From Caulobacteraceae bacterium (GTDB lineage: Bacteria; Pseudomonadota; Alphaproteobacteria; Caulobacterales; Caulobacteraceae): a stretch of 64,000 nt of DNA. Both the position numbers and the translations under genes were made by a program. Shown here piece after piece: positions 9,591-51,493 of the stretch; position 1 is the first letter of the stretch; every line of letters begins with the position of its first letter. The notes under the pieces are model-generated. The model was given only the letters and a program-made list of their open reading frames with translations. It was not told where the DNA came from and did not search any database. The DNA lies in NCBI GenBank assembly GCA_019746095.1, contig JAIESL010000002.1:100603-164602 (forward strand), written 5' to 3'.

Positions 9591-9816
9591 GCCACGGTTT
9601 CCTTTGCTGGACATCGTTCGCAACATCGCCGCTGCGGCTGCCCTTGATCTCGGCGCTGTCAGGGTCAGCGTCATCCGCTAGGGTGCCCGCCATGAACAGA
9701 CCCCTTGCCCCGGGCGCAACGGCCGCCGCCGGCACCCGGCCTGCCGCTGTTATGGAGCCCCTCCCCTGACCGCCGACCGACCCACATCGTCCCGCGCCGC
9801 TCCGCCCCCGCTGATC

Positions 9817-10866
9817 GTGGGCGGGGACGCCTTGCCGCGTCCGGACAACCGCGTCCTCATCCCCACCCACGGCCGCAAGCCTGCGTCGCCGCCCGGCACC
9901 GTGATCTGGGACCTGACCGGTGAATCCATGGGCACGCGCTGGTCAGTGCGGCTGGTTCCACCGCCGGCGCTTGACCGCGCTGCCGTCCAGTCCGCCGTCG
10001 AGGCGGAACTGGCCCGGATTGTCGGCCTGTTCAGCCATTGGGATCCCCGGTCCGAGCTTTCGCGGCTGAATGCGGCCCCGCCAGGCTTCTGGGCCGTGTC
10101 CGAGCCGTTCTGGGCCCTGCTGAACCAGGCCATGGATCTGGCCGATGAGACCAATGGTGCCGTGGACCCGGCGCTGGGCACACTCGTCGATCTCTGGGGC
10201 TTCGGCCCCCCCGGCCCTCGCCCCCTCAACGGGTTCGGGACCGGCTGCACCCTGCCCCTGGAGGATGAGATCGCCGCCGCCCGGGCCCTGTCCGGCTGGG
10301 GCATCGTCCGTTTCAACCGGGAGGCCCGCGCGGTCCAGCAACTGGGCGGCGTAAGGCTTGACCTTTCCGCCATCGCCAGGGGCCATGCCGTCGACCGGAT
10401 TTCCGAACGCCTGACCGCCATGGGCGCCACCCACCATCTGGTCGAGATCGGGGGCGAGCGGCGCGGCGCGGGCGTCAAGCCGGACGGCATGCCCTGGTGG
10501 GTTGAGTTGCAACAGGCACCGGGGGCATCGGGCCTGCGGACGGTCGCCGCCCTGTTCGACCTGGCCTGCGCCACCTCGGGCGACTCGATCCATCGCTTCG
10601 AGGCCTACGGCCAGACTTACAGCCACACCCTCGACGGCCGCACCGGCCGGCCGGTCGAAAACGGGATCGCCTCGGTCACCGTCCTTGCCGAAACGGCCGT
10701 CTACGCCGACGCCATGGCCACGGCCCTGACGGTCATGGGCCCCGAGGAGGGGCCGGCCTATGCCGCAGCCATGAACATCGCCGCCGCCCTTGTGGTGCGA
10801 ACCGCGGACGGGCTGACAGAGACTGTGACCCCCGCCTTTGCTGCGATGATGTCCGCGGGCACCTGA
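9817..10866 (+). CDS. apbE: FAD:protein FMN transferase (start uncertain)
   Basis: MGTRW, SELSRLN, LDLSAIARG..VD, EIGGE, ATSGD and ADAMATAL motifs. Confidence 0.88.
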   Translation: MGGDALPRPDNRVLIPTHGRKPASPPGTVIWDLTGESMGTRWSVRLVPPPALDRAAVQSAVEAELARIVGLFSHWDPRSELSRLNAAPPGFWAVSEPFWALLNQAMDLADETNGAVDPALGTLVDLWGFGPPGPRPLNGFGTGCTLPLEDEIAAARALSGWGIVRFNREARAVQQLGGVRLDLSAIARGHAVDRISERLTAMGATHHLVEIGGERRGAGVKPDGMPWWVELQQAPGASGLRTVAALFDLACATSGDSIHRFEAYGQTYSHTLDGRTGRPVENGIASVTVLAETAVYADAMATALTVMGPEEGPAYAAAMNIAAALVVRTADGLTETVTPAFAAMMSAGT

Positions 10867-42106: not shown

Positions 42107-43101
42107 AGGGCGGCCTCGATCTCGCCCTGGTAGCCGAACAGCCCCTGGGCCCCGCCGGTGTGCAGGAAGACCAGGGTCTCGTTCTCGAACCGGCCCGCCT
42201 TCGCCAGGGCGATCAGCCCCTTCATCGCCTTGCCCGTATAGACCGGGTCCAGCACGATGGCGTCGGTCCGCGCCGCCAGCACAAGGGCGTCGATCACCGC
42301 CTGGTCGACCAGGCCATACCCCTCGCCGACATAGTCGCAGTCGGCCACCACCATCTCCGGCGTCACCGCGCCCGGCCGTCCCAGCAGGGTCGCCGTCTCG
42401 CGGGCCAGTTTCAGCACATTCTCTTCCTGCTTCGCCTTCGGGGCCCGGACCCCGATGCCCAGCACCGGAATGTCCGCCCCCATCACGGCCAGCCCGGCCA
42501 CCAGACCGGCATGGGTCCCGGCGCTGCCGGTCGCGGTGATGATCCGGTCGATCTGCATGTCCAGTTCGTCGGCCTGGACCACGATCTCGCGGGCGCAGTC
42601 GACATAGCCCAGGGCCCCGACCGGGTTCGAGCCGCCGCCGGGGATGATATAGGGCTTGCCGCCGCGCGCCCGCACCTCGGCCGCCGTCTTCTCCAGCTCG
42701 GCCGGCATGTCCGAGCCGCCAGGCACGGTGCGGATGCCCGCGCCGAACAGCCGGTCCATCAGGACGTTGCCGTTGCGGGTGTAGTCGACCGCCCTCGACC
42801 CCGTCCGCTCTTCCAGAATGACCTCGCAGGCCAGGCCGTGGGCCGCCGCCGCCGCCGCCGTCTGGCGCACATGGTTCGACTGCACCGCCCCTTGCGTCAC
42901 CAGCGTATCGGCCCCGCATTCGAAGGCGTCGCCCAGCAGGAACTCCAGCTTGCGGGTCTTGTTGCCGCCGCCGGCCAGGCCGGTGCAGTCGTCGCGCTTG
43001 ATCCAGATCTCCACCCCCAGCGCCTCGCTCAGCCGCGGCAGGGGCTCCAGCGGGGTCGGCAGATGCGCCAGGCGGATGCGGGGAAAGCGGGCGAGGTGCA
43101 T
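42103..43101 (-). CDS. dcyD: D-cysteine desulfhydrase (PLP-dependent)
   Basis: [27 protein letters not shown] and LDPVYTGK motifs. Confidence 0.9.
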
Positions 43102-43196
43102 CGATCGGACTCCATGGGGGACCGCCCCCGTTAGCACTGCAGGGGCCATCGGGCGACCGCTTGCCGACTCACACCGGCTGGCCCGATGCTGCCCCC

Positions 43197-43820
43197 ATGG
43201 CCGAATCGCCCGCCAACCCCGCCATAAGGCTGCGCAGCCGCCCCGCCACCGAGGCCCTCATCATCGAGGCCGGTGAGCGTATCCTGCTGCGCGACGGCTT
43301 CCCCGGCCTCAATGTCCAGACCCTGGCGGCCGAGGCCGGCTGCGACCGGAAACTGGTCTATCGCTATTTCGACGGTGCCGACGGCGTGGTCACCCGCATC
43401 GCCGCCCGCGCCCATGCCGAGCTGGTCCACACGCTGGACGCCACGCCCCCGGCCGGGTCCGAGACCCTGCGCGCCTTCGCCCGCGAGAGCCTGTCGGCCT
43501 GGCTGGGTGCCCTGCGCGCCAGTCCCCTGACCCTGCGGCTGATGGCCTGGGCCCTGGTCGAGGCCACGCCCCTGCTCAACCGCATCGAGGACGAACGGTC
43601 CGCCGTGCTCCAGGCCTGGATGCGCGAGCGCCGGCCCCGCCTGCGCCTGCCCCCGGCCGGCGACGCCGTGGCCATCAATGCCGTCCTGCTGGCGGCCGTC
43701 CAGCACCTCGCCCTGACCGGCGAGGCCCGTCCGGGCACCGGCGGCGTGGCCCTGGACGAGGCCGGCTGGGCCCGGATCCAGGCCGCGCTCGACGCCCTGC
43801 TCGCTGCCTTCCCCGATTGA
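43197..43820 (+). CDS. TetR-family regulator
   Basis: N-terminal HTH ([16 protein letters not shown]); divergent from dcyD. Confidence 0.85.
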
Positions 43821-43851
43821 AGCCCGCGCCGGGCAGGCGTAAGACTGGTTC

Positions 43852-46021
<2,170 letters not shown>

Positions 46022-46405
46022 CTCGACCCCGAAAAATGGGCGAAAAGCACCACTCTCGCCCCTGACGGCCGGAGGCGCACTGCGCGCTGGAGAGGAAATC
46101 CAGCCTGTCACAGCGGCGGGATCGGGATGGATTGTCAAACACCCAACGCGGAGGCGGCGGAGTTTCCGCCGTTCGAGGAATGAGTCTAACCCGGTGAGGA
46201 GCGGCGCCAGGTTGACCGGCCGGAATTGTTTCGCCGGCGGGAGCGAGAAGGCACCATCAGGGGTTCAAAAGGGCGGGAAGATCGGGGGCGGGAAGGCAGG
46301 CCGGGTCGGGCCCGGCCCGCTCCGGCAACCCGCATTTTCAGGCTTGATCCAGCTCGCAGGCCGCGCAAGCCTGATGAAATACTTCGTCTGACCCAGGGGG
46401 ACAGC

Positions 46406-46870
46406 ATGATCCGCACCGCCATTCTCGCCTTCACCCTTGTGGCCACACCGTCAGCGGCCCTGGCGCAGACCCAGACTGTAATGCCCGAAGTCCGGCTGCT
46501 GCGTCCGGCCCCCGGGACGACCGCCGAAATGCCCACTGCCCCGGTCGATCCAGTCCCGAGAGAGTACCGGGTCGACATGGCGATCGAGGACCAGGGCTGG
46601 ATCTATCAGGAGATCTCCGCACGCGGCCCCGAAACATCCCCGCCGGTTACCACAACGATCTATCAGGGTAGGGGTTATCCGGCGACGATCATGGTCTGCC
46701 CGACATTGGTGCCGCTCACGCTGCTGCCACGTGGCGAGGCAGAGGTACTTGTCCAAAACAGCCGCTGCGCGACCGTCACCACCGACTACCTGCAAGTCAG
46801 GACCGCCTCCCGGGACCGCCGCATGCTCATCCGCTACCGGATCCTGGCCGTCCACCGCGCCGCCGACTGA
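46406..46870 (+). CDS. Secreted hypothetical protein
   Basis: RBS-like AGGGGG; signal peptide MIRTAILAFTLVATPSAALAQ. Confidence 0.65.
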   Translation: MIRTAILAFTLVATPSAALAQTQTVMPEVRLLRPAPGTTAEMPTAPVDPVPREYRVDMAIEDQGWIYQEISARGPETSPPVTTTIYQGRGYPATIMVCPTLVPLTLLPRGEAEVLVQNSRCATVTTDYLQVRTASRDRRMLIRYRILAVHRAAD

Positions 46871-46875
46871 AGGCG

Positions 46876-46937
46876 CTCGCCACCAACGCCGGCAGGCGGT
46901 TGATCCCGCGCGAGACCCACAGCGCACCTCACCGGCA
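46876..46937 (-). pseudogene. Decayed duplicate of part of the dsbA-family gene (49711-49786)
   Basis: 27 bp identity 46899-46925 = 49735-49761; flanks match 18/24 and 10/12, with a 13 bp deletion. Confidence 0.8.
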
Positions 46938-46938
46938 C

Positions 46939-47153
46939 TTGTCATCCCGGAAGCCGCGCAGCGGCTATCCGGGACGGGACGGCACAGCCACCCCCACCCC
47001 CCGCCCGGAAGGCGCACCGCGCCTGTCCGGGCGACAGGCCAGGGCCGCACCGCATGGCTCCCGGCTCAGCCCCGACGGGCTGTCCGGGAGGGCATAGTGG
47101 GGGCACGCATCGTCCCGGCTCTGCGCCGCTGCGCGGCTTGGCCGGGATGACAA
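46939..47153. mobile_element. REP-doublet/MITE-like element, copy 1 (215 bp)
   Basis: 12 bp terminal inverted repeats TTGTCATCCCGG/CCGGGATGACAA; internal hairpins; near-identical to copies 2 and 3. Confidence 0.9.
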
Positions 47154-47160
47154 ACGGCCT

Positions 47161-47751
47161 TCACCCCGCCAACCGATCCGGCACGACCTGCCAGCCGTAA
47201 TAGGCCAGCCCCGCCGCCAGCAGGGCGATGTTGAACCAGCGCCGGCGCACCGCGATCAGCAGGCCGTAGCCGAGGCAGAACTCCCAGGGCAGGCTGGCCA
47301 GCACCGATCCCACGGTCATGGCGGGCGCGTCCGGCCACTGGCCCCCCGCCCACTGGATCATGCCGACGGCCCAGAAGGCCATCAGGCCGAGGATCAGGCT
47401 CCCGAAGGTCAGGGCGCGGGTGTGGTCATAGTGGGCATACAGGTCGACCGGCCCCTCCTCCGGGACGGGGTCGGGCAGGACGAAGGTCGCGGCCATGAAG
47501 GGCAGTATCAGCTTGCCGACCTGAAGCAGCAGCATCCCGACCGTCGTCTCCGTCTGGTTCCGCGCGCCCCACTGGCCCAGCCACACCGAGATGATGACCA
47601 GCACGATGATCCCGGCCAGCAACAGCGGCTCGGGCGCCCAGCGCACCCGCCGCCCGGCCAGGGCCAGCCGACTGACGGTCGAGGCCATATGCGCCAATGC
47701 CAGGCCGAGGATGACGGCGGACAGGCCGAAGGTGAATTCGAACAGCGACAT
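47161..47751 (-). CDS. Multi-pass membrane hypothetical protein
   Basis: MSLFEFTFGL start, several TM segments, LPD...EGPVDLY.HY motif. Confidence 0.8.
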   Translation of the reverse strand: MSLFEFTFGLSAVILGLALAHMASTVSRLALAGRRVRWAPEPLLLAGIIVLVIISVWLGQWGARNQTETTVGMLLLQVGKLILPFMAATFVLPDPVPEEGPVDLYAHYDHTRALTFGSLILGLMAFWAVGMIQWAGGQWPDAPAMTVGSVLASLPWEFCLGYGLLIAVRRRWFNIALLAAGLAYYGWQVVPDRLAG

Positions 47752-47805
47752 GGACCGACGTTCGGGGAAGGCGCGGGGGGCGTCAAGCGGCGGTGGGGGG
47801 GGGTC

Positions 47806-48018
47806 TTGTCATCCCGGAAGCCGCGCAGCGGCTATCCGGGACGGGACGGGACGTCCACAACTCCCCCGCCCGGAAGGCGCACCGCGCCTGTCCGGGCGAC
47901 AGGTCAGGGCCGCACCGCGTGGCTCCCGGCCCAGCCCTGTCGGGCTGTCCGGGAGGGCACACAGGCAGCGCCCGTCGTCCCGGCTCTGCGCCGCTGCGCG
48001 GCTTGGCCGGGATGACAA
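47806..48018. mobile_element. REP-doublet/MITE-like element, copy 2 (213 bp)
   Basis: Same terminal inverted repeats and core as copy 1, same orientation. Confidence 0.9.
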
Positions 48019-48130
48019 GGCAGGGGTCACGCTTCGGCGGCCATCCCCCCTTGAGGAGGAGGGCTCTCACGGCCGCCACCTACGGGTGCAAGTCCTCGCC
48101 GCCCGCCACCACCCGGGCTAAACTCCCCCC

Positions 48131-48640
48131 ATGCCCACCCTCGTCCTCCTCGCCGGACCCAACGGCGCCGGCAAGACCACCTTCATCAACCAGTTCCTGC
48201 GCGAGCGGGCGACGACGTTCCAGTTCGTCAATCCAGACGAGGTGGCGCGCAGCCTGACCGGTGCCGGCCCGGCCCGCGATCTGGCCGCCGGGCGGCTGGT
48301 GCTGGAACGGCTGGATCAGTTGTTCGCCCTGCGCGCCGATGTCATGCTGGAGACCACCCTGGCCACCCGCTCCCACGCCGTGCGCATCCGCGACTGGAAG
48401 GCGGCCGGGTATCGGGTCGAGTTGATCTATCTGCGCCTGCCCTCGGCCGACCACTCGGTCGCCCGTGTCGCCCGACGCGTGTCCGAAGGCGGCCATGGCA
48501 TTCCTGAGGACACGCTGCGCCGCCGCTTCCTGCTCAGCCTGGAATGCCTGGAGACGGTCTACAAACCGATCGTGGATGCGTGGCGGGTCTACGCGAGTGG
48601 TGCGGATGCGCCGGAACTGCTAGATTGGGGACCGAAATGA
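48131..48640 (+). CDS. Zeta-toxin-like/AAA_33 P-loop NTPase (COG4185-like)
   Basis: Walker A AGPNGAGKTT; FVNPD, ETTL and RV..GGH.IP motifs. Confidence 0.85.
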   Translation: MPTLVLLAGPNGAGKTTFINQFLRERATTFQFVNPDEVARSLTGAGPARDLAAGRLVLERLDQLFALRADVMLETTLATRSHAVRIRDWKAAGYRVELIYLRLPSADHSVARVARRVSEGGHGIPEDTLRRRFLLSLECLETVYKPIVDAWRVYASGADAPELLDWGPK

Positions 48641-48819
48641 GCACGATCTTCGATCACGAAACCGTCCTGAAAGCCCTGCGCGCTGCCGCGCACACGGCCA
48701 AACACGGCACGCGCGAGGAAAAGTCCGGCAAGTTCCTGCCGCCTCCGGGCTGGAAGGGTCACCTCGTCACCGCCGCCGACGTCGTTCCCAAGAAGCCGCG
48801 CAAGGCCAAGGCGGCTTAA
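48637..48819 (+). CDS. Small basic protein coupled to the zeta-like NTPase
   Basis: 60 aa; ATGA overlap; GC3-rich codons. Confidence 0.7.
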   Translation: MSTIFDHETVLKALRAAAHTAKHGTREEKSGKFLPPPGWKGHLVTAADVVPKKPRKAKAA

Positions 48820-48832
48820 TCAGCACCACCCC

Positions 48833-49047
48833 TTGTCATCCCGGAAGCCGCGCAGCGGCTATCCGGGACGGGACAGCATCCACCACGCCCCGCCCGGAAG
48901 GCGCACCGCGCCTGTCCGGGCGACAGGTCAGGGCCGCACCGCGTGGCTCCCGGCTCAGCCCTGACGGGCTGTCCGGGAGGGCATGGAGGGCGCACGCACC
49001 GTCCCGTCCCGGCTCTGCGCCGCTGCGCGGCTGGGCCGGGATGACAA
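48833..49047. mobile_element. REP-doublet/MITE-like element, copy 3 (215 bp)
   Basis: Same terminal inverted repeats and core as copies 1 and 2. Confidence 0.9.
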
Positions 49048-49120
49048 AGGGGGATGAGCCTCCGTCCAAATCTGACGCACCCCCGGCCTATCCTCCCCCG
49101 CGATCAGAAGGGAGGACCCC

Positions 49121-49624
49121 ATGCCCGACGGCACCCCCACCACTCCCGCCAACGGCCATCGCCCCGCGCCCGACGCGGTCTGGGCCCAGGTGCGCGAGGA
49201 CTATCTGGCCGGGATCTCCGCCCCCGCATGCTGCCGGCGTCACGGGGTCGGGCTGACCGCGCTGCGCAAGCGGGCGGCCAGCGAGGGCTGGCGGCGGGCC
49301 GACCAGCCGTGGACACCGCCGGTCCGGCTGGACCCGTGGGACGAGGGCGTGCTGCTGGAGGAAAGGGTCGCCGGCGATCTTGACCAGATCGAGATGCACG
49401 AGCTCGAATGGATCGCCGACCGGCGGATGATGCGGGCCGTCCTGCGCGGCGACGCCGCCGAGGCCCTGCGCTGGCGCCGGGTGCACGCCTTCCTCGCGGC
49501 CGACGCCCGGGAGATCGAGCGGCTGGTCGCTGCGGAGGAGAAGGCCATGGGATGCGTCCACCGGGACGCGCACGAAGCGCACGATGTGAACGGTGTGAAC
49601 GGTGTTTCCGGACGCGGCGCGTGA
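49121..49624 (+). CDS. Hypothetical protein with an N-terminal HTH-like segment
   Basis: RBS GGGAGG; W..VR.DYLAG......RRHGVG.TALRKRA..EGW.R motif. Confidence 0.75.
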   Translation: MPDGTPTTPANGHRPAPDAVWAQVREDYLAGISAPACCRRHGVGLTALRKRAASEGWRRADQPWTPPVRLDPWDEGVLLEERVAGDLDQIEMHELEWIADRRMMRAVLRGDAAEALRWRRVHAFLAADAREIERLVAAEEKAMGCVHRDAHEAHDVNGVNGVSGRGA

Positions 49625-49632
49625 GAGCCGGC

Positions 49633-50295
49633 TCAGCCCCCGGCGGCCATCTTCCGCAGGGCCTCTTCAAAGACGGAGGCCGGCTGCCCGCCCGAGATCA
49701 GCCATTTCCCCTCGACCACCACGGCGGGCACGCTGTTGATCCCGCGCGAGACCCACAGCGCCTCCGCCGCCCGCACCTCGGCGGCATGGAGGTCGCCTGA
49801 CAGCACCTCGACCGCCTTCGCCCGGTCCAGCCCCGCCGCCGCCGCCGCGTCGGCCAGGACCCCGGCGTCGGTCATCGTCCGGCCCTCGGTGAAATGGGCC
49901 GTGAACAGGGCCGCCTTCAGGGCCCTCTGTTCCGCCGGCCCCACCGTCGCCGCCCAGTGCAGCAGCCGGTGGGCGTCGAAGGTGTTCCAGATGCGGCTGT
50001 CGGGGCCCATCTGCATCCGGAACCCCGGCCAGGCGTCCTCGGCCCGTTCGGTGATCATGGCCCGGTTGGCCGCCGACTGTTCGGGGGTCGAGCCGTATTT
50101 GCGGGCGATATGCTCGCCGACGTTCTCGCCCTCGGGGGGCATCTGCGGGTTCAGCTCGAACGGCCGGAAATGCACCTCGGCCGTGATCCCCTCGGCCTTC
50201 AGCGCCTCCAGCGCCGTCTCCAGCCCGCCCAGCCCCACGACGCACCAGGGGCAGACGATGTCGGAGACGAAGTCGATGTGCAGGGTGCGGGTCAT
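49633..50295 (-). CDS. DsbA/FrnE-family oxidoreductase
   Basis: [25 protein letters not shown] and GINSVP motifs. Confidence 0.92.
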
Positions 50296-50314
50296 GGGGC
50301 GGGGTCCTGCGGCC

Positions 50315-51493
50315 TCAGTCGCGCTCGACGCAGAGGGCCACGCCCATGCCGCCGCCGATGCACAGGGTGGCCAGGCCCTTCTTCGCGCCGCGCCGCTTCA
50401 TCTCATGCAGCAGCGTCGTCAGGATGCGGGCGCCCGAGGCGCCGATCGGGTGGCCGATGGCGATGGCGCCGCCGTTGACATTGACCTTGTCGGGGTCGAG
50501 GCCCAGCTCGCGCAGGACGCACAGGCTCTGGGCCGCGAAGGCCTCGTTGGATTCGACCAGATCGAGGTCGGCCACGGTCCAGCCGGCCTTCTCCAGCGCC
50601 TTTTTCGAGGCCGGGATCGGGCCGGTGCCCATGACCGCCGGATCGACGCCCGCCGTCGCCGAGGAGACGATGCGGGCCAGCGGCTCCAGCCCCCGGGCCT
50701 TCGCATCGGCCGCGCTCATCAGCACCAGGGCCGCGGCCCCGTCATTGAGGCCCGAGGCATTGGCGGCGGTGACGCTGCCTTCCTTCGTAAAGGCGGGCTT
50801 GAGCCCCTGCATGGCCTCCAGGGTCGCGCCGTGGCGGATGAACTCGTCCTTGTCGACGACGGTGTCGCCCTTGCGGCCCTTGATGGTCACCGGCGCGATC
50901 TCGTCGTCGAACCGCCCCGCCTTCTGCGCCGCCTCGGCCTTGTTCTGGCTGGCCACGGCGAAGGCGTCCTGATCCGCGCGGCTGATGTGGAAGGTGTCGG
51001 CGATGTTCTCGGCCGTCTGGCCCATGTGATAGCCGTTGAAGGCGTCCCACAGGCCGTCGCTGATCATGGTGTCGACCAGTTTGATGTCGCCCATCTTCTG
51101 GCCGGTGCGCAGGGCCTGGGCGTGCGGGGCCTGGCTCATGCTCTCCTGTCCGCCGGCCACGACGATGCGGGCGTCACCCAGGGCGATCTGCTGGGCCCCG
51201 ATGGCCACGGCGCGCAGGCCCGAGCCGCAGATCTGGTTCAGGCTCCAGGCCGCGGCCTCCTTGCGAATGCCCGCCCCCATGGCCGCCTGCCGGGCCGGGC
51301 CCTGCCCCGCCGCCGCCTGCAGCACATGGCCGAGGATGACCTCGTCCACCTCTTCCGGCGTGACCCCGGCCCGCTCCAGCGCCGCCCGGATGGCGACCTC
51401 GCCCAGTTTCGACGCCGGCAGGCTGGACAGGGCGCCGAGGAAGGAACCGACCGGCGTGCGCGCGGCGGAGACAATGACGACGTCGATGGACAT
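50315..51493 (-). CDS. phaA: Acetyl-CoA C-acetyltransferase (beta-ketothiolase)
   Basis: [20 protein letters not shown] and LCIGGGMG motifs; near phaR. Confidence 0.93.

What the first reader, a model, noticed from the sequence alone, without database searches (positions are those of the whole stretch)
46406..49624. Cassette-like array: unrelated genes alternating with three REP-doublet elements
The order is secreted gene, element, membrane gene (-), element, zeta-like NTPase plus partner, element, HTH-like gene. The elements are 215, 213 and 215 bp, in the same orientation. Each is two inverted GTCATCCCGG...CCGGGAC REP hairpins around a conserved multi-hairpin core, with two short variable segments. 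They hug gene ends (7 bp and 13 bp from stops). None occurs elsewhere in the 64 kb. REPs of this GTCAT(C/T)CC type are known in alphaproteobacteria. An integron-like role as gene-capture or recombination sites at one hotspot between thiC and dsbA is my inference. No recombinase is present.
Basis: partly seen in the sequence, partly recalled or inferred. Interest (0 to 1): 0.7.

Follow-up and report, generated by a model that had tools for sequence, protein, structure and literature searches.

The report
Nuclease-linked hairpin repeats flanking hotspot genes
Three near-identical 215-bp hairpin elements between thiC and dsbA of a Brevundimonas genome are gene-less copies of a small unit that, in a relative, carries a GIY-YIG nuclease gene (like the Ssn/NTS system of Neisseria); they mark module boundaries in a gene-turnover hotspot and are not integron-like capture sites.

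Summary
E1 (46938-47153), E2 (47805-48018) and E3 (48832-49047) are about 90% identical, lie in the same orientation, sit close to gene ends, and occur nowhere else in the window.

Each element is four CCCGG...CCGGG hairpins between CTTGTCATCCCGG inverted ends. In relative G023 the same ends and an inner hairpin frame a roughly 100-aa GIY-YIG nuclease gene. The elements are therefore that unit without its gene, close to the published Ssn nuclease / SRM (NTS) repeat system.

This sub-family was found in only seven Brevundimonas species (this genome and six others). In all of them it lies on the 3' side of dsbA. Copy number follows the number of gene modules between copies: one copy, two (E-memb-E) or three (here).

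The genes are not newly captured. The zeta-like pair sits in this interval in many species, and in G124 the same genes are bounded by other repeat families. Scars of the dsbA 3' end and defence systems in relatives mark the interval as a flux hotspot.

No tyrosine recombinase lies on the 195-kb contig, and the genome has no RAYT. Recombination between element copies best explains the differences between species. The integron-like reading is not supported.

Verdict: a new variant of a known kind, of moderate interest.

The parts
44006..46021 (+). thiC, the conserved left border of the hotspot. A TPP riboswitch lies at 43850-43956.
   Evidence: ORF list. Rfam TPP riboswitch, 64.5 bits. In 30 relatives, similarity ends at the thiC stop codon.
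46406..46870 (+). 154-aa gene with an N-terminal signal-peptide-like segment and no family hit.
   Evidence: The only homologue seen, in G042, lies on another contig beside what looks like the 3' end of a tRNA gene, with the same dsbA-fragment remnant after it.
46843..46932 (-). frag(a): a decayed duplicate of the dsbA 3' region. The best-kept part, 46880-46925, matches 49716-49761. It abuts E1.
   Evidence: Repeat D5, 46 nt at 89% identity with a 27-nt exact run. Model R2 hit, E = 5.7e-10. The same fragment-to-E junction is present in Root608.
46938..47153 (+). E1. Left hairpin end 46938-46980, variable linker 46981-47002, two-hairpin core 47003-47093, variable linker 47094-47111, right hairpin end 47112-47153.
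   Evidence: It corresponds in position to the left element of G132, with which it shares a core base change.
47161..47751 (-). 196-aa multi-pass membrane protein (memb), no family hit.
   Evidence: It is 93% identical in protein to G124, where other repeat families flank it. It is 71% identical to G132, where E copies flank it.
47805..48018 (+). E2, between the divergent memb and zeta-like genes.
   Evidence: Its left junction (the memb upstream region) is the same in G132 apart from one base in a G run. In G124 the same spacer holds a different palindromic family.
48027..48049 (-). frag(b): a 23-nt tip of a former dsbA 3' end (stop codon plus 7 codons), 8 nt right of E2. A roughly 20-nt remnant of another palindromic repeat follows at 48050-48068.
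   Evidence: TCACGCTTCGGCGGCCATCCCCC matches the dsbA end of G124, TCAGGCTTCGGCGGCCATCCCCC, at 22 of 23 bases. The remnant resembles the right end of the G124 repeat directly upstream of zeta.
48131..48819 (+). Zeta_toxin/AAA_33-like P-loop NTPase (48131-48640) and a translationally coupled 60-aa partner (48637-48819).
   Evidence: Pfam PF06414 E = 3e-13 and PF13671 E = 2.7e-12. Homologues, some only fragments, were found in 49 of 120 other Brevundimonas genomes; in the genomes where thiC and dsbA were also mapped the gene usually lies between them.
48832..49047 (+). E3, between the partner gene and the 167-aa gene.
   Evidence: Its core is identical to the single elements of G042 and GW715_bin.29, which occupy the same position.
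49121..49624 (+). 167-aa gene ('HTH'). An E copy lies directly upstream of its homologue in six of the seven E-bearing genomes (all but G008, which lacks the gene here). G009 has the gene without E.
   Evidence: PHROG terminase-small-subunit HTH region, E = 1e-4. No Pfam, NCBIfam or PDB hit. Alignment A8.
49633..50295 (-). DsbA-like thioredoxin-fold gene, the right border of the hotspot. Its 3' part, 49639-49775, is the segment found duplicated as scars.
   Evidence: PF01323 E = 8.5e-30. Model R2 hits. Duplicated 3' fragments also occur in nine relatives: G005, G042, G009, G010, G017, G043, G124, Root608 and GW715.

Best explanation
What the elements are (shown). Each element has two inverted GTCAT-type hairpins at its ends, CTTGTCATCCCGG-stem-loop-CCGGGAC, and two similar inner hairpins joined by fast-changing linkers. 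In the relative G023 the same outer hairpins and an inner hairpin frame a roughly 100-aa single-domain GIY-YIG nuclease gene. The element is that unit without the gene. This is the layout published for Ssn nucleases and their SRM/NTS repeats.

Where they are (shown). This sub-family is tied to one place, the 3' side of dsbA. That place lies in the thiC-dsbA interval, where Brevundimonas species swap defence and toxin-like modules and where earlier insertions left duplicated dsbA 3' ends.

How the array arose and changes (inferred). The array is old. Copies at the same position in different species are more alike than copies within this genome. The copies are 215-bp direct repeats, so ordinary homologous recombination between them, and between the dsbA 3' duplicates, can add or remove the modules between them. 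That would give the 1-, 2- and 3-copy versions seen in different species.

What they do (inferred, by analogy with Neisseria NTS-gene-NTS). In cells that carry the matching nuclease, single-stranded incoming DNA would be cut at each element. That would set where recombination tracts end and would limit replacement of the flanked genes. This genome lacks a close homologue of that nuclease, so here the elements may now act only as strong hairpins at transcript ends.
For: Structure.
- Three copies with very strong folding.
- A four-hairpin consensus; 18 of 53 pairs keep pairing through changes on both sides across 16 family copies.

Nuclease link.
- In G023 the unit has CTTGTCATCCCGG hairpins at 491-530 and 943-982 of L055 around a GIY-YIG ORF; the Pfam hit (PF01541, E = 1.2e-11) was obtained on the listed 116-aa ORF 579-929, whose likely start is near 881.
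- Alignment A9 shows that E shares the left end, the second inner hairpin and the right end of that unit.
- GIY-YIG genes of this clade lie next to E-family hits in G015:C6, G005:C16, G004:C6 and G023.
- Close homologues of the nuclease (67% identity or more) occur in E-bearing G132, GW715, G005, G042 and G008.
- The published model is PMC11893778.

Restriction to one locus.
- An exact-core scan of one genome per species found the sub-family in only six other Brevundimonas species. All copies lie beside the dsbA 3' end.

Copy number and modules.
- One copy in G042, G005, Root608, GW715 and G008; two in G132 (E-memb-E); three here.

Genes are residents.
-. G124 has zeta-partner-memb with other repeat families in the spacers.

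Signs of recombination.
- The G005 element carries E1's left linker (91% identical) and the right linker of E3 / G132's right copy (74% and 94% identical).
- G132's left element carries E3's left linker (100% identical) and a right linker equally close to E1 and E2 (67% each).
- The memb body is mosaic between G000, G132 and G124 while the flanks differ.

Hotspot.
- dsbA 3' scars.
- Septu PtuA/PtuB, HipA_2 + DUF3037, and a caspase-like gene in relatives.

No recombinase.
- No PF00589 hit on contig C138. No RAYT in the genome, and RAYT in only 5 of 121 genomes searched in the genus, none of them E-bearing.
Against: - The element hairpins do not match the published SRM search pattern: the loop is too long and the 3' tail differs. 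That pattern is also not enriched in this genome, with 35 hits against 34-42 in simulated sequence.
- Membership of the G023 nuclease in cd10448 could not be tested. Its only PDB hit is a UPF0213 GIY-YIG protein.
- This genome and Root608 have only 43-48%-identical paralogues of the nuclease, so any nuclease-dependent role here is unproven.
- How the first duplication of E arose is not shown. Deletion from a 3-copy ancestor and stepwise insertion predict the same present-day patterns.
- The conserved blocks are 92-100% identical between species whose neighbouring 167-aa gene looks much more diverged in alignment A8 (roughly 72-95% by eye). Neutral relics would not be kept so well.
Confidence: 0.6

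Rival explanations
1. Cassette dock without an integrase. Gene-plus-E circles or fragments, perhaps made by the Ssn-type nuclease cutting at the hairpins, enter and leave at a resident E next to dsbA. E would then work like an attC site or a portable homology site, and each insertion would duplicate E.
For: - All copies have the same orientation.
- Copy number equals the number of modules plus one across genomes.
- The sub-family is absent elsewhere in the genomes searched.
- E has six different left contexts and four different right contexts, although it lives at one locus.
- Elements with one neighbour's left linker and another's right linker are what a crossover inside E would give.
- The blocks are conserved beyond neighbouring coding DNA.
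Against: - No recombinase lies at or near the locus.
- The cognate nuclease clade is absent from this genome.
- The zeta-like pair and memb occur at the same locus without E in G124.
- Copies at the same position in different species are closer to each other than to copies in the same genome, so there has been no recent cassette traffic.
- RecA-mediated deletion between direct repeats explains the same pattern.
- No circles or alternative junctions could be looked for.
Confidence: 0.2
2. Three independent insertions of a mobile, MITE-like element at gene ends in a pre-existing gene row, with no role in gene gain or loss.
For: - The wider family (about 70% identity, 200-215 bp) is scattered as single copies in many Brevundimonas genomes.
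- G009 shows an empty site between the dsbA fragment and the 167-aa gene.
- Other repeat families occupy the same spacers in G124 and G005.
- Earlier scan notes report elements with the same termini exactly at stop codons in other genomes (unchecked).
Against: - The three copies share a sub-family core that is found only at this locus in any species.
- All three have the same orientation.
- No genome shows the same gene order without E.
- Gene order here (memb, then zeta-partner) is permuted relative to G124, G054 and G059 (zeta-partner, then memb). Rearrangement, not only insertion, must have occurred.
- A target-site duplication could not be established.
Confidence: 0.15
3. Classical REPINs moved by a RAYT (Y1/HUH) transposase.
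For: Each element is a doublet of inverted REP-like hairpins that forms one long hairpin.
Against: - PF01797 is absent from this genome.
- In the genus it is present in only 5 of 121 genomes, none of them E-bearing.
- The gene found between these hairpins is a GIY-YIG nuclease, not a RAYT.
Confidence: 0.02

Closest known systems
Ssn GIY-YIG single-strand nucleases with their SRM/NTS hairpin repeats (Chenal et al. 2025, Nat Commun, PMC11893778)
   Same: - A hairpin repeat with a conserved GTCAT-type 5' flank: NTS is CGTCATTCCCGCG...CGCGGGAAT; here it is TGTCATCCCGG...CCGGGAC.
- Inverted copies frame a roughly 100-aa single-domain GIY-YIG gene (in relative G023).
- The repeats are intergenic and cluster around genes, giving a repeat-gene-repeat layout that includes a membrane protein.
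- The authors themselves note that the unit looks like an insertion sequence.
   Different: - The hairpins here have a longer stem-loop and fail the published SRM search pattern.
- The element is a 215-bp four-hairpin unit lacking the nuclease gene. I did not find such a derivative in the sections of that paper I read.
- This sub-family is confined to one locus, with 1-3 copies rather than hundreds.
- The matching nuclease clade is missing from this genome.
- No biochemistry exists for Brevundimonas.
Neisserial dRS3 repeats and intergenic mosaic elements, and 'minimal mobile elements' between conserved flanking genes (from my own knowledge; the term appears in PMC3082526)
   Same: - Repeat-bounded gene modules sit between conserved core genes and differ between lineages.
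- The repeats have been proposed as homology for recombination.
- Exchange needs no element-encoded recombinase.
   Different: - A different organism and a different repeat sequence.
- Natural transformation is not established for Brevundimonas, as far as I know.
- Here duplicated 3' ends of one flanking gene (dsbA) also mark past insertions.
BIMEs of E. coli (clusters of REP hairpins) and REPINs with RAYT (Bertels and Rainey 2011, PMC3116915)
   Same: - Clusters of REP-like hairpins joined by linkers.
- An inverted doublet that folds as one long hairpin.
- Location at gene ends.
- A tandem extra copy of the right hairpin in G042 and G132, which resembles BIME expansion.
   Different: - No RAYT is present.
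- The associated gene is a GIY-YIG nuclease.
- Copy number is very low and the sub-family is restricted to one locus.
Integron cassette arrays (attC sites with IntI)
   Same: - Imperfect palindromic elements alternate with genes at one locus.
- The number of elements follows the number of gene modules.
- Elements that combine one neighbour's left linker with another's right linker would fit crossovers inside the element.
   Different: - There is no IntI, attI or Pc.
- The termini are not attC-like.
- Gene orientations are mixed.
- In other species the same genes carry different repeat families or none.
Core defence hotspots without mobility genes (Johnson et al. 2023, PMC10250203)
   Same: The interval lies between conserved core genes (thiC and dsbA). 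Across species it holds different defence or toxin-like systems (Septu, HipA_2 + DUF3037, a caspase-like gene, a zeta-like NTPase), with no integrase nearby.
   Different: Here the interval also carries dsbA 3' duplication scars and several palindromic repeat families at module borders.

Membership tests
Ssn nuclease / SRM (NTS-like) repeat system | A hairpin repeat with a conserved, oriented GTCAT-type 5' flank | tested here: met
   TGTCATCCCGG-stem-loop-CCGGGAC lies at both ends of each element, in inverted orientation. Compare the NTS consensus CGTCATTCCCGCGMAVGCGGGAATCYRG.
Ssn nuclease / SRM (NTS-like) repeat system | A match to the published degenerate SRM search sequence HGTCWYN(0-2)YYVSBRHN(0-5)WNVSBRGN(0-2)RNCYNB | tested here: not met
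   No strict match in the array. A match appears only when the loop limit is raised to 16 and the 3' tail is dropped. A different repeat, beside the C80 paralogue in this genome, does match the strict pattern.
Ssn nuclease / SRM (NTS-like) repeat system | The repeats flank a small single-domain GIY-YIG gene on both sides | tested here: met
   Met in relative G023 (L055): hairpins at 491-530 and 943-982 around an ORF with PF01541, E = 1.2e-11. The two paralogues in this genome are framed by other GTCAT/CTCAT-type hairpins.
Ssn nuclease / SRM (NTS-like) repeat system | [quoted passage not shown] | not testable with these tools
   No CDD search was available. There was no NCBIfam hit. The only PDB hit is the UPF0213 protein 1zg2, E = 4e-5.
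Ssn nuclease / SRM (NTS-like) repeat system | Sequence-specific cleavage of single-stranded DNA next to the repeat | not testable with these tools
   This needs a nuclease assay.
Integron | An IntI tyrosine recombinase with attI and Pc next to the array | tested here: not met
   None of the 18 PF00589 matches in the genome lies on contig C138 (195 kb).
Integron | attC architecture, with cassettes in one orientation and each gene tied to its own attC | tested here: not met
   The elements are four-hairpin, 215-bp units with CTTGTCATCC ends. memb lies on the opposite strand. In G124 and G005 the same genes carry other repeat families.
REPIN / RAYT | A RAYT (PF01797) gene in the genome, typically flanked by its REPs | tested here: not met
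   Zero hits in this genome. Hits in 5 of 121 genomes searched in the genus, none of them E-bearing.
MITE (non-autonomous derivative of a gene-carrying element) | Terminal inverted repeats shared with a longer, gene-carrying partner | tested here: met
   Alignment A9 of E against the G023 hairpin-GIY-YIG-hairpin unit.
MITE (non-autonomous derivative of a gene-carrying element) | A target-site duplication and demonstrated empty and filled sites | tested here: inconclusive
   G009 has the fragment-to-HTH junction without E. G005, G042 and Root608 have it with E. The flanking CGCACCCC / TCACCCC similarity is too weak to call a duplication.

The most novel reading that the evidence does not exclude
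The elements are the working sites of a cassette-exchange system that needs no integrase. An Ssn-type GIY-YIG nuclease, supplied in trans, cuts single-stranded DNA at the hairpins. Module-sized pieces ending in half-elements are then swapped in and out next to dsbA, using the 215-bp element as portable homology. This would make the dsbA 3' side a dedicated docking site for defence and toxin-like genes. It would also explain why the hairpin blocks are conserved beyond coding DNA, and why copy number equals the number of modules plus one.
Probability: 0.17. Interest if true: 0.8.

Novelty: new variant of a known kind. Interest (0 to 1): 0.5.

Why it matters
Ssn nucleases and their hairpin repeats were described only in 2025. 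Their role outside Neisseria is open, and how the repeats multiply is unknown.

- This locus gives a small, readable case in an alphaproteobacterium. A gene-less four-hairpin derivative of the nuclease unit sits at the borders of gene modules in a defence/toxin hotspot.
- Its copy number follows module number across species, and its hairpin blocks are conserved more strongly than the neighbouring gene.
- If the nuclease cuts these hairpins, the locus would offer a direct test of whether such repeats steer where recombination tracts end in hotspots that lack integrases.
- If it does not, the array is an ordinary REP-like repeat cluster shaped by homologous recombination.

Tried and rejected
- Rfam search of 43000-51000: only the TPP riboswitch and chance microRNA-like hits in the thiC hairpin.
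- Promoter and terminator scan of the array: nothing above chance.
- Pfam, NCBIfam, PHROGs, PADLOC and PDB searches for the secreted, membrane, partner and 167-aa proteins: no informative hits except a weak terminase-HTH match.
- RAYT: absent.
- Literature search for Brevundimonas REPs, and for the literal motif: nothing relevant.
- Supplementary tables of the Ssn paper: not held.
- Reading the variable linkers as mutually complementary, co-evolving arms: only partly true by eye (E1, G005) and not for Root608, so dropped.
- Reading the 10-nt TCACCCCTCC right of the G042 element and E3 as a third dsbA tip: too short to claim.
- A single integrase-mediated island bounded by the 46-nt repeat: rejected, because the fragment-HTH-dsbA module is old and widespread, and G009 has it without E.

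Full report
**1. Observation**

The window carries three direct copies of a roughly 215-bp element.
- They lie at 46938-47153 (E1), 47805-48018 (E2) and 48832-49047 (E3) and are 90% identical pairwise.
- A sequence model built from the element finds only these three in the 64 kb, at E = 1e-52 to 1e-55.
- E1 folds at -150 kcal/mol, with z = -7.8 against shuffled sequence.

- a signal-peptide gene (+);
- frag(a) and E1;
- a membrane gene, memb (-), whose stop is 7 nt from E1;
- E2;
- a Zeta_toxin/AAA_33-like NTPase with an overlapping 60-aa partner (+), whose stop is 12 nt before E3;
- E3;
- a 167-aa gene (+);
- DsbA-like (-).

The interval lies between thiC and the DsbA-like gene. The draft genome (138 contigs, 67% G+C) holds one further, diverged full copy (C131:9996-10214, 67-69% identity) and about five solo hairpins.

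**2. Anatomy of the element**

A consensus fold was made from 16 family copies in eight genomes.
- It gives four local hairpins of one type (CCCGG-stem-loop-CCGGG). Two are outer hairpins preceded by CTTGTCAT in inverted orientation, and two are inner hairpins.
- In 18 of 53 pairs, at least one copy keeps the pair through changes on both sides.

Ten sub-family copies from seven genomes were then compared block by block.

| Block | Length | Identity between copies |
|---|---|---|
| Left end | 43 nt | 100% in 7 of 10 copies (98% Root608, 81% GW715, 79% G008) |
| Core | 91 nt | 92-100% among nine copies (G008 about 80%) |
| Right end | 42 nt | 90-100% |
| Two linkers | 17-27 nt | 25-100%, with insertions and deletions |

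The neighbouring 167-aa gene looks much less conserved between the same genomes, roughly 72-95% by eye from alignment A8; I did not compute this. The hairpin blocks therefore appear to be kept more strictly than the coding DNA next to them.

**3. What the element derives from**

A note from an earlier scan pointed to small nucleases framed by repeats. Following it, I looked at pairs of inverted CTTGTCATCCCGG hairpins in relatives.
- In the complete genome G023, one such pair (L055 491-530 and 943-982) encloses a GIY-YIG ORF; PF01541, E = 1.2e-11, was scored on the listed 116-aa ORF, whose likely start gives about 100 aa.
- Alignment A9 shows that E shares the left hairpin, the second inner hairpin (with compensatory changes) and the right hairpin of that unit. 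E is the unit without the ORF.
- Nuclease genes of this clade lie next to E-family hits in G015, G005 and G004 as well.

This is the layout published for the Ssn family. There, small GIY-YIG nucleases are framed by hairpin repeats (NTS/SRM) with a GTCAT-type flank. The nuclease cuts single-stranded DNA next to the repeat, and it lowers transformation by NTS-gene-NTS DNA in Neisseria (PMC11893778).

Limits on this link:
- The hairpins here fail the published SRM search pattern, and that pattern is not enriched in this genome.
- Membership of the nuclease in cd10448 could not be tested.
- This genome has only two 43-46%-identical paralogues, each framed by its own hairpin type.
- Close homologues (67% identity or more) occur in five of the six other E-bearing genomes (G132, GW715, G005, G042, G008), but not in Root608.

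**4. Distribution**

The genus is Brevundimonas (record titles).
- The wider family (about 70% identity) is scattered as single copies in many species.
- The sub-family with this core was found, by an exact-pattern scan of one genome per species, in only six other species.
- Every copy lies beside the dsbA 3' end.

**5. The locus in relatives**

thiC and dsbA are linked across the genus, with 2-6 kb of unrelated DNA between them.

| Genome (locus) | Layout from the thiC side to dsbA |
|---|---|
| G023 (L014) | thiC - Septu PtuA/PtuB - dsbA |
| G009 (L017) | low-GC gene - 118-aa gene - dsbA fragment - HTH - other repeat - dsbA (no E) |
| Root608 (L050) | dsbA fragment - E - HTH - dsbA |
| G042 (L018) | HipA_2 + DUF3037 - dsbA fragment - E - HTH - other repeat - dsbA |
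| GW715_bin.29 (L054) | caspase-like gene - dsbA fragment - zeta-partner - E - HTH - dsbA |
| G005 (L020) | fragment 1 - repeat - zeta remnant-partner - another GTCAT-type doublet - fragment 2 - E - HTH - dsbA |
| G008 (L015) | zeta remnant - E - dsbA |
| G132 (L046) | low-GC gene - E - memb - E - HTH - dsbA |
| G124 (L043) | dsbA fragment - repeat F2 - zeta-partner - F2' - memb - repeat C - dsbA (no E, no HTH) |

Homologues of the zeta-like gene, some only fragments, were found in 49 of 120 other genomes of the genus. Where thiC and dsbA were also mapped, the gene usually lies between them. The genes are therefore residents of the hotspot. In G124 the same genes are bounded by other palindromic families at nearly the same distances from their ends.

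**6. dsbA scars**

The window has a decayed copy of the dsbA 3' region just left of E1. Model R2 places it at 46843-46932, and the best-kept part, 46880-46925, matches 49716-49761.

I also found a 23-nt tip of a dsbA 3' end, 8 nt right of E2 (48027-48049). It matches the dsbA end of G124 at 22 of 23 bases.

The fragments in different species resemble the dsbA end of G023, which has no insertion, more than the present dsbA ends of their own genomes. That is what one expects if incoming modules brought their own dsbA end and pushed the old one outward.

The two scars split the window's array into two parts:
- E1-memb-E2, which matches G132;
- zeta-partner-E3-HTH, which matches GW715_bin.29.

**7. 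History and mechanism**

The array appears to be old.
- Copies at the same position in different species share base changes. E1 and G132's left copy share one in the core. The cores of E3, G042 and GW715 are identical.
- Copies within this genome differ from one another.
- The array therefore predates these species splits, or it moved as a block.

Several elements combine the linkers of different copies.
- The G005 element has E1's left linker (91% identical) and the right linker of E3 / G132's right copy (74% and 94% identical).
- G132's left copy has E3's left linker (100% identical) and a right linker equally close to E1 and E2 (67% each).
- This would place crossovers inside the conserved core, as homologous recombination between 215-bp direct repeats would. 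Deletion and Campbell-type insertion are mirror images, and these data cannot tell them apart.

memb is a mosaic.
- Its body is like that of G124. Its last ~125 nt at the 5' end, the upstream region and E2 are almost identical to G132.
- The rest of the gene looks much more diverged from G132 (roughly 78% by eye). Gene bodies and elements therefore have separate histories.

No recombinase is at hand.
- The 195-kb contig has no tyrosine recombinase.
- RAYT is absent from the genome and rare in the genus.

**8. Verdict**

Relatives do differ by modules with an element at the junction, and a linked GIY-YIG gene exists.
- The best reading is a locus-bound sub-family of gene-less, Ssn/SRM-like hairpin elements at module borders in a gene-flux hotspot. 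Homologous recombination between the copies generates the presence or absence of modules.

Noticed in passing
window 48027-48068: A 23-nt tip of a dsbA 3' end lies 8 nt right of E2 and matches the G124 dsbA end at 22 of 23 bases. A roughly 20-nt remnant of another palindromic repeat family follows it.
   Followed up: partly
G000 contigs C125:3736-4011 and C80:13072-13341 (own genome, outside the window): Two small GIY-YIG genes, each framed by its own inverted hairpin type (GCTCATCCCGGCGAAAGCCGGGAC and CGTCATCCTCGGGCTTGACCCGAGGAC). The second type matches the published SRM pattern.
   Followed up: partly
L014 about 9750-10290 (G023, between dsbA and the thiolase gene): By eye, a DUF559-like (Vsr-fold) endonuclease gene framed by CCTCCCCC...GGGGGAGG palindromes. 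These resemble the repeat family that bounds zeta and memb in G124 and lies between HTH and dsbA in G042. No family search was run on this gene.
   Followed up: no
L018 4168-4207 and L046 5358-5397: The elements of G042 and G132 carry a tandem second copy of the right-hand hairpin, joined by AGA. This resembles repeat-number change in BIMEs.
   Followed up: no
L054 2048-2090: The element of GW715_bin.29 has a different left hairpin with compensating stem changes (CCCCGA...TCGGGG), while its core is identical to E3. Hairpin modules seem to be swapped between family members.
   Followed up: no
L021 900-1760 (G042 contig C4): A homologue of the secreted gene, with the same short dsbA-fragment remnant after its stop, lies beside what looks by eye like the 3' end of a tRNA gene on another contig. 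This module has moved between hotspots.
   Followed up: partly
window 44537-44665: An in-frame heptamer-repeat hairpin inside thiC (100% complementary 23-nt arms). Another finding of this scan already covers it.
   Followed up: no
window 46981-47002, 47094-47111 and the matching parts of E2 and E3: The two linkers are C-rich (left) and G-rich (right) and change by insertions and deletions much faster than the hairpin blocks beside them. The cause is unexplained; slippage in homopolymer runs is one possibility.
   Followed up: partly
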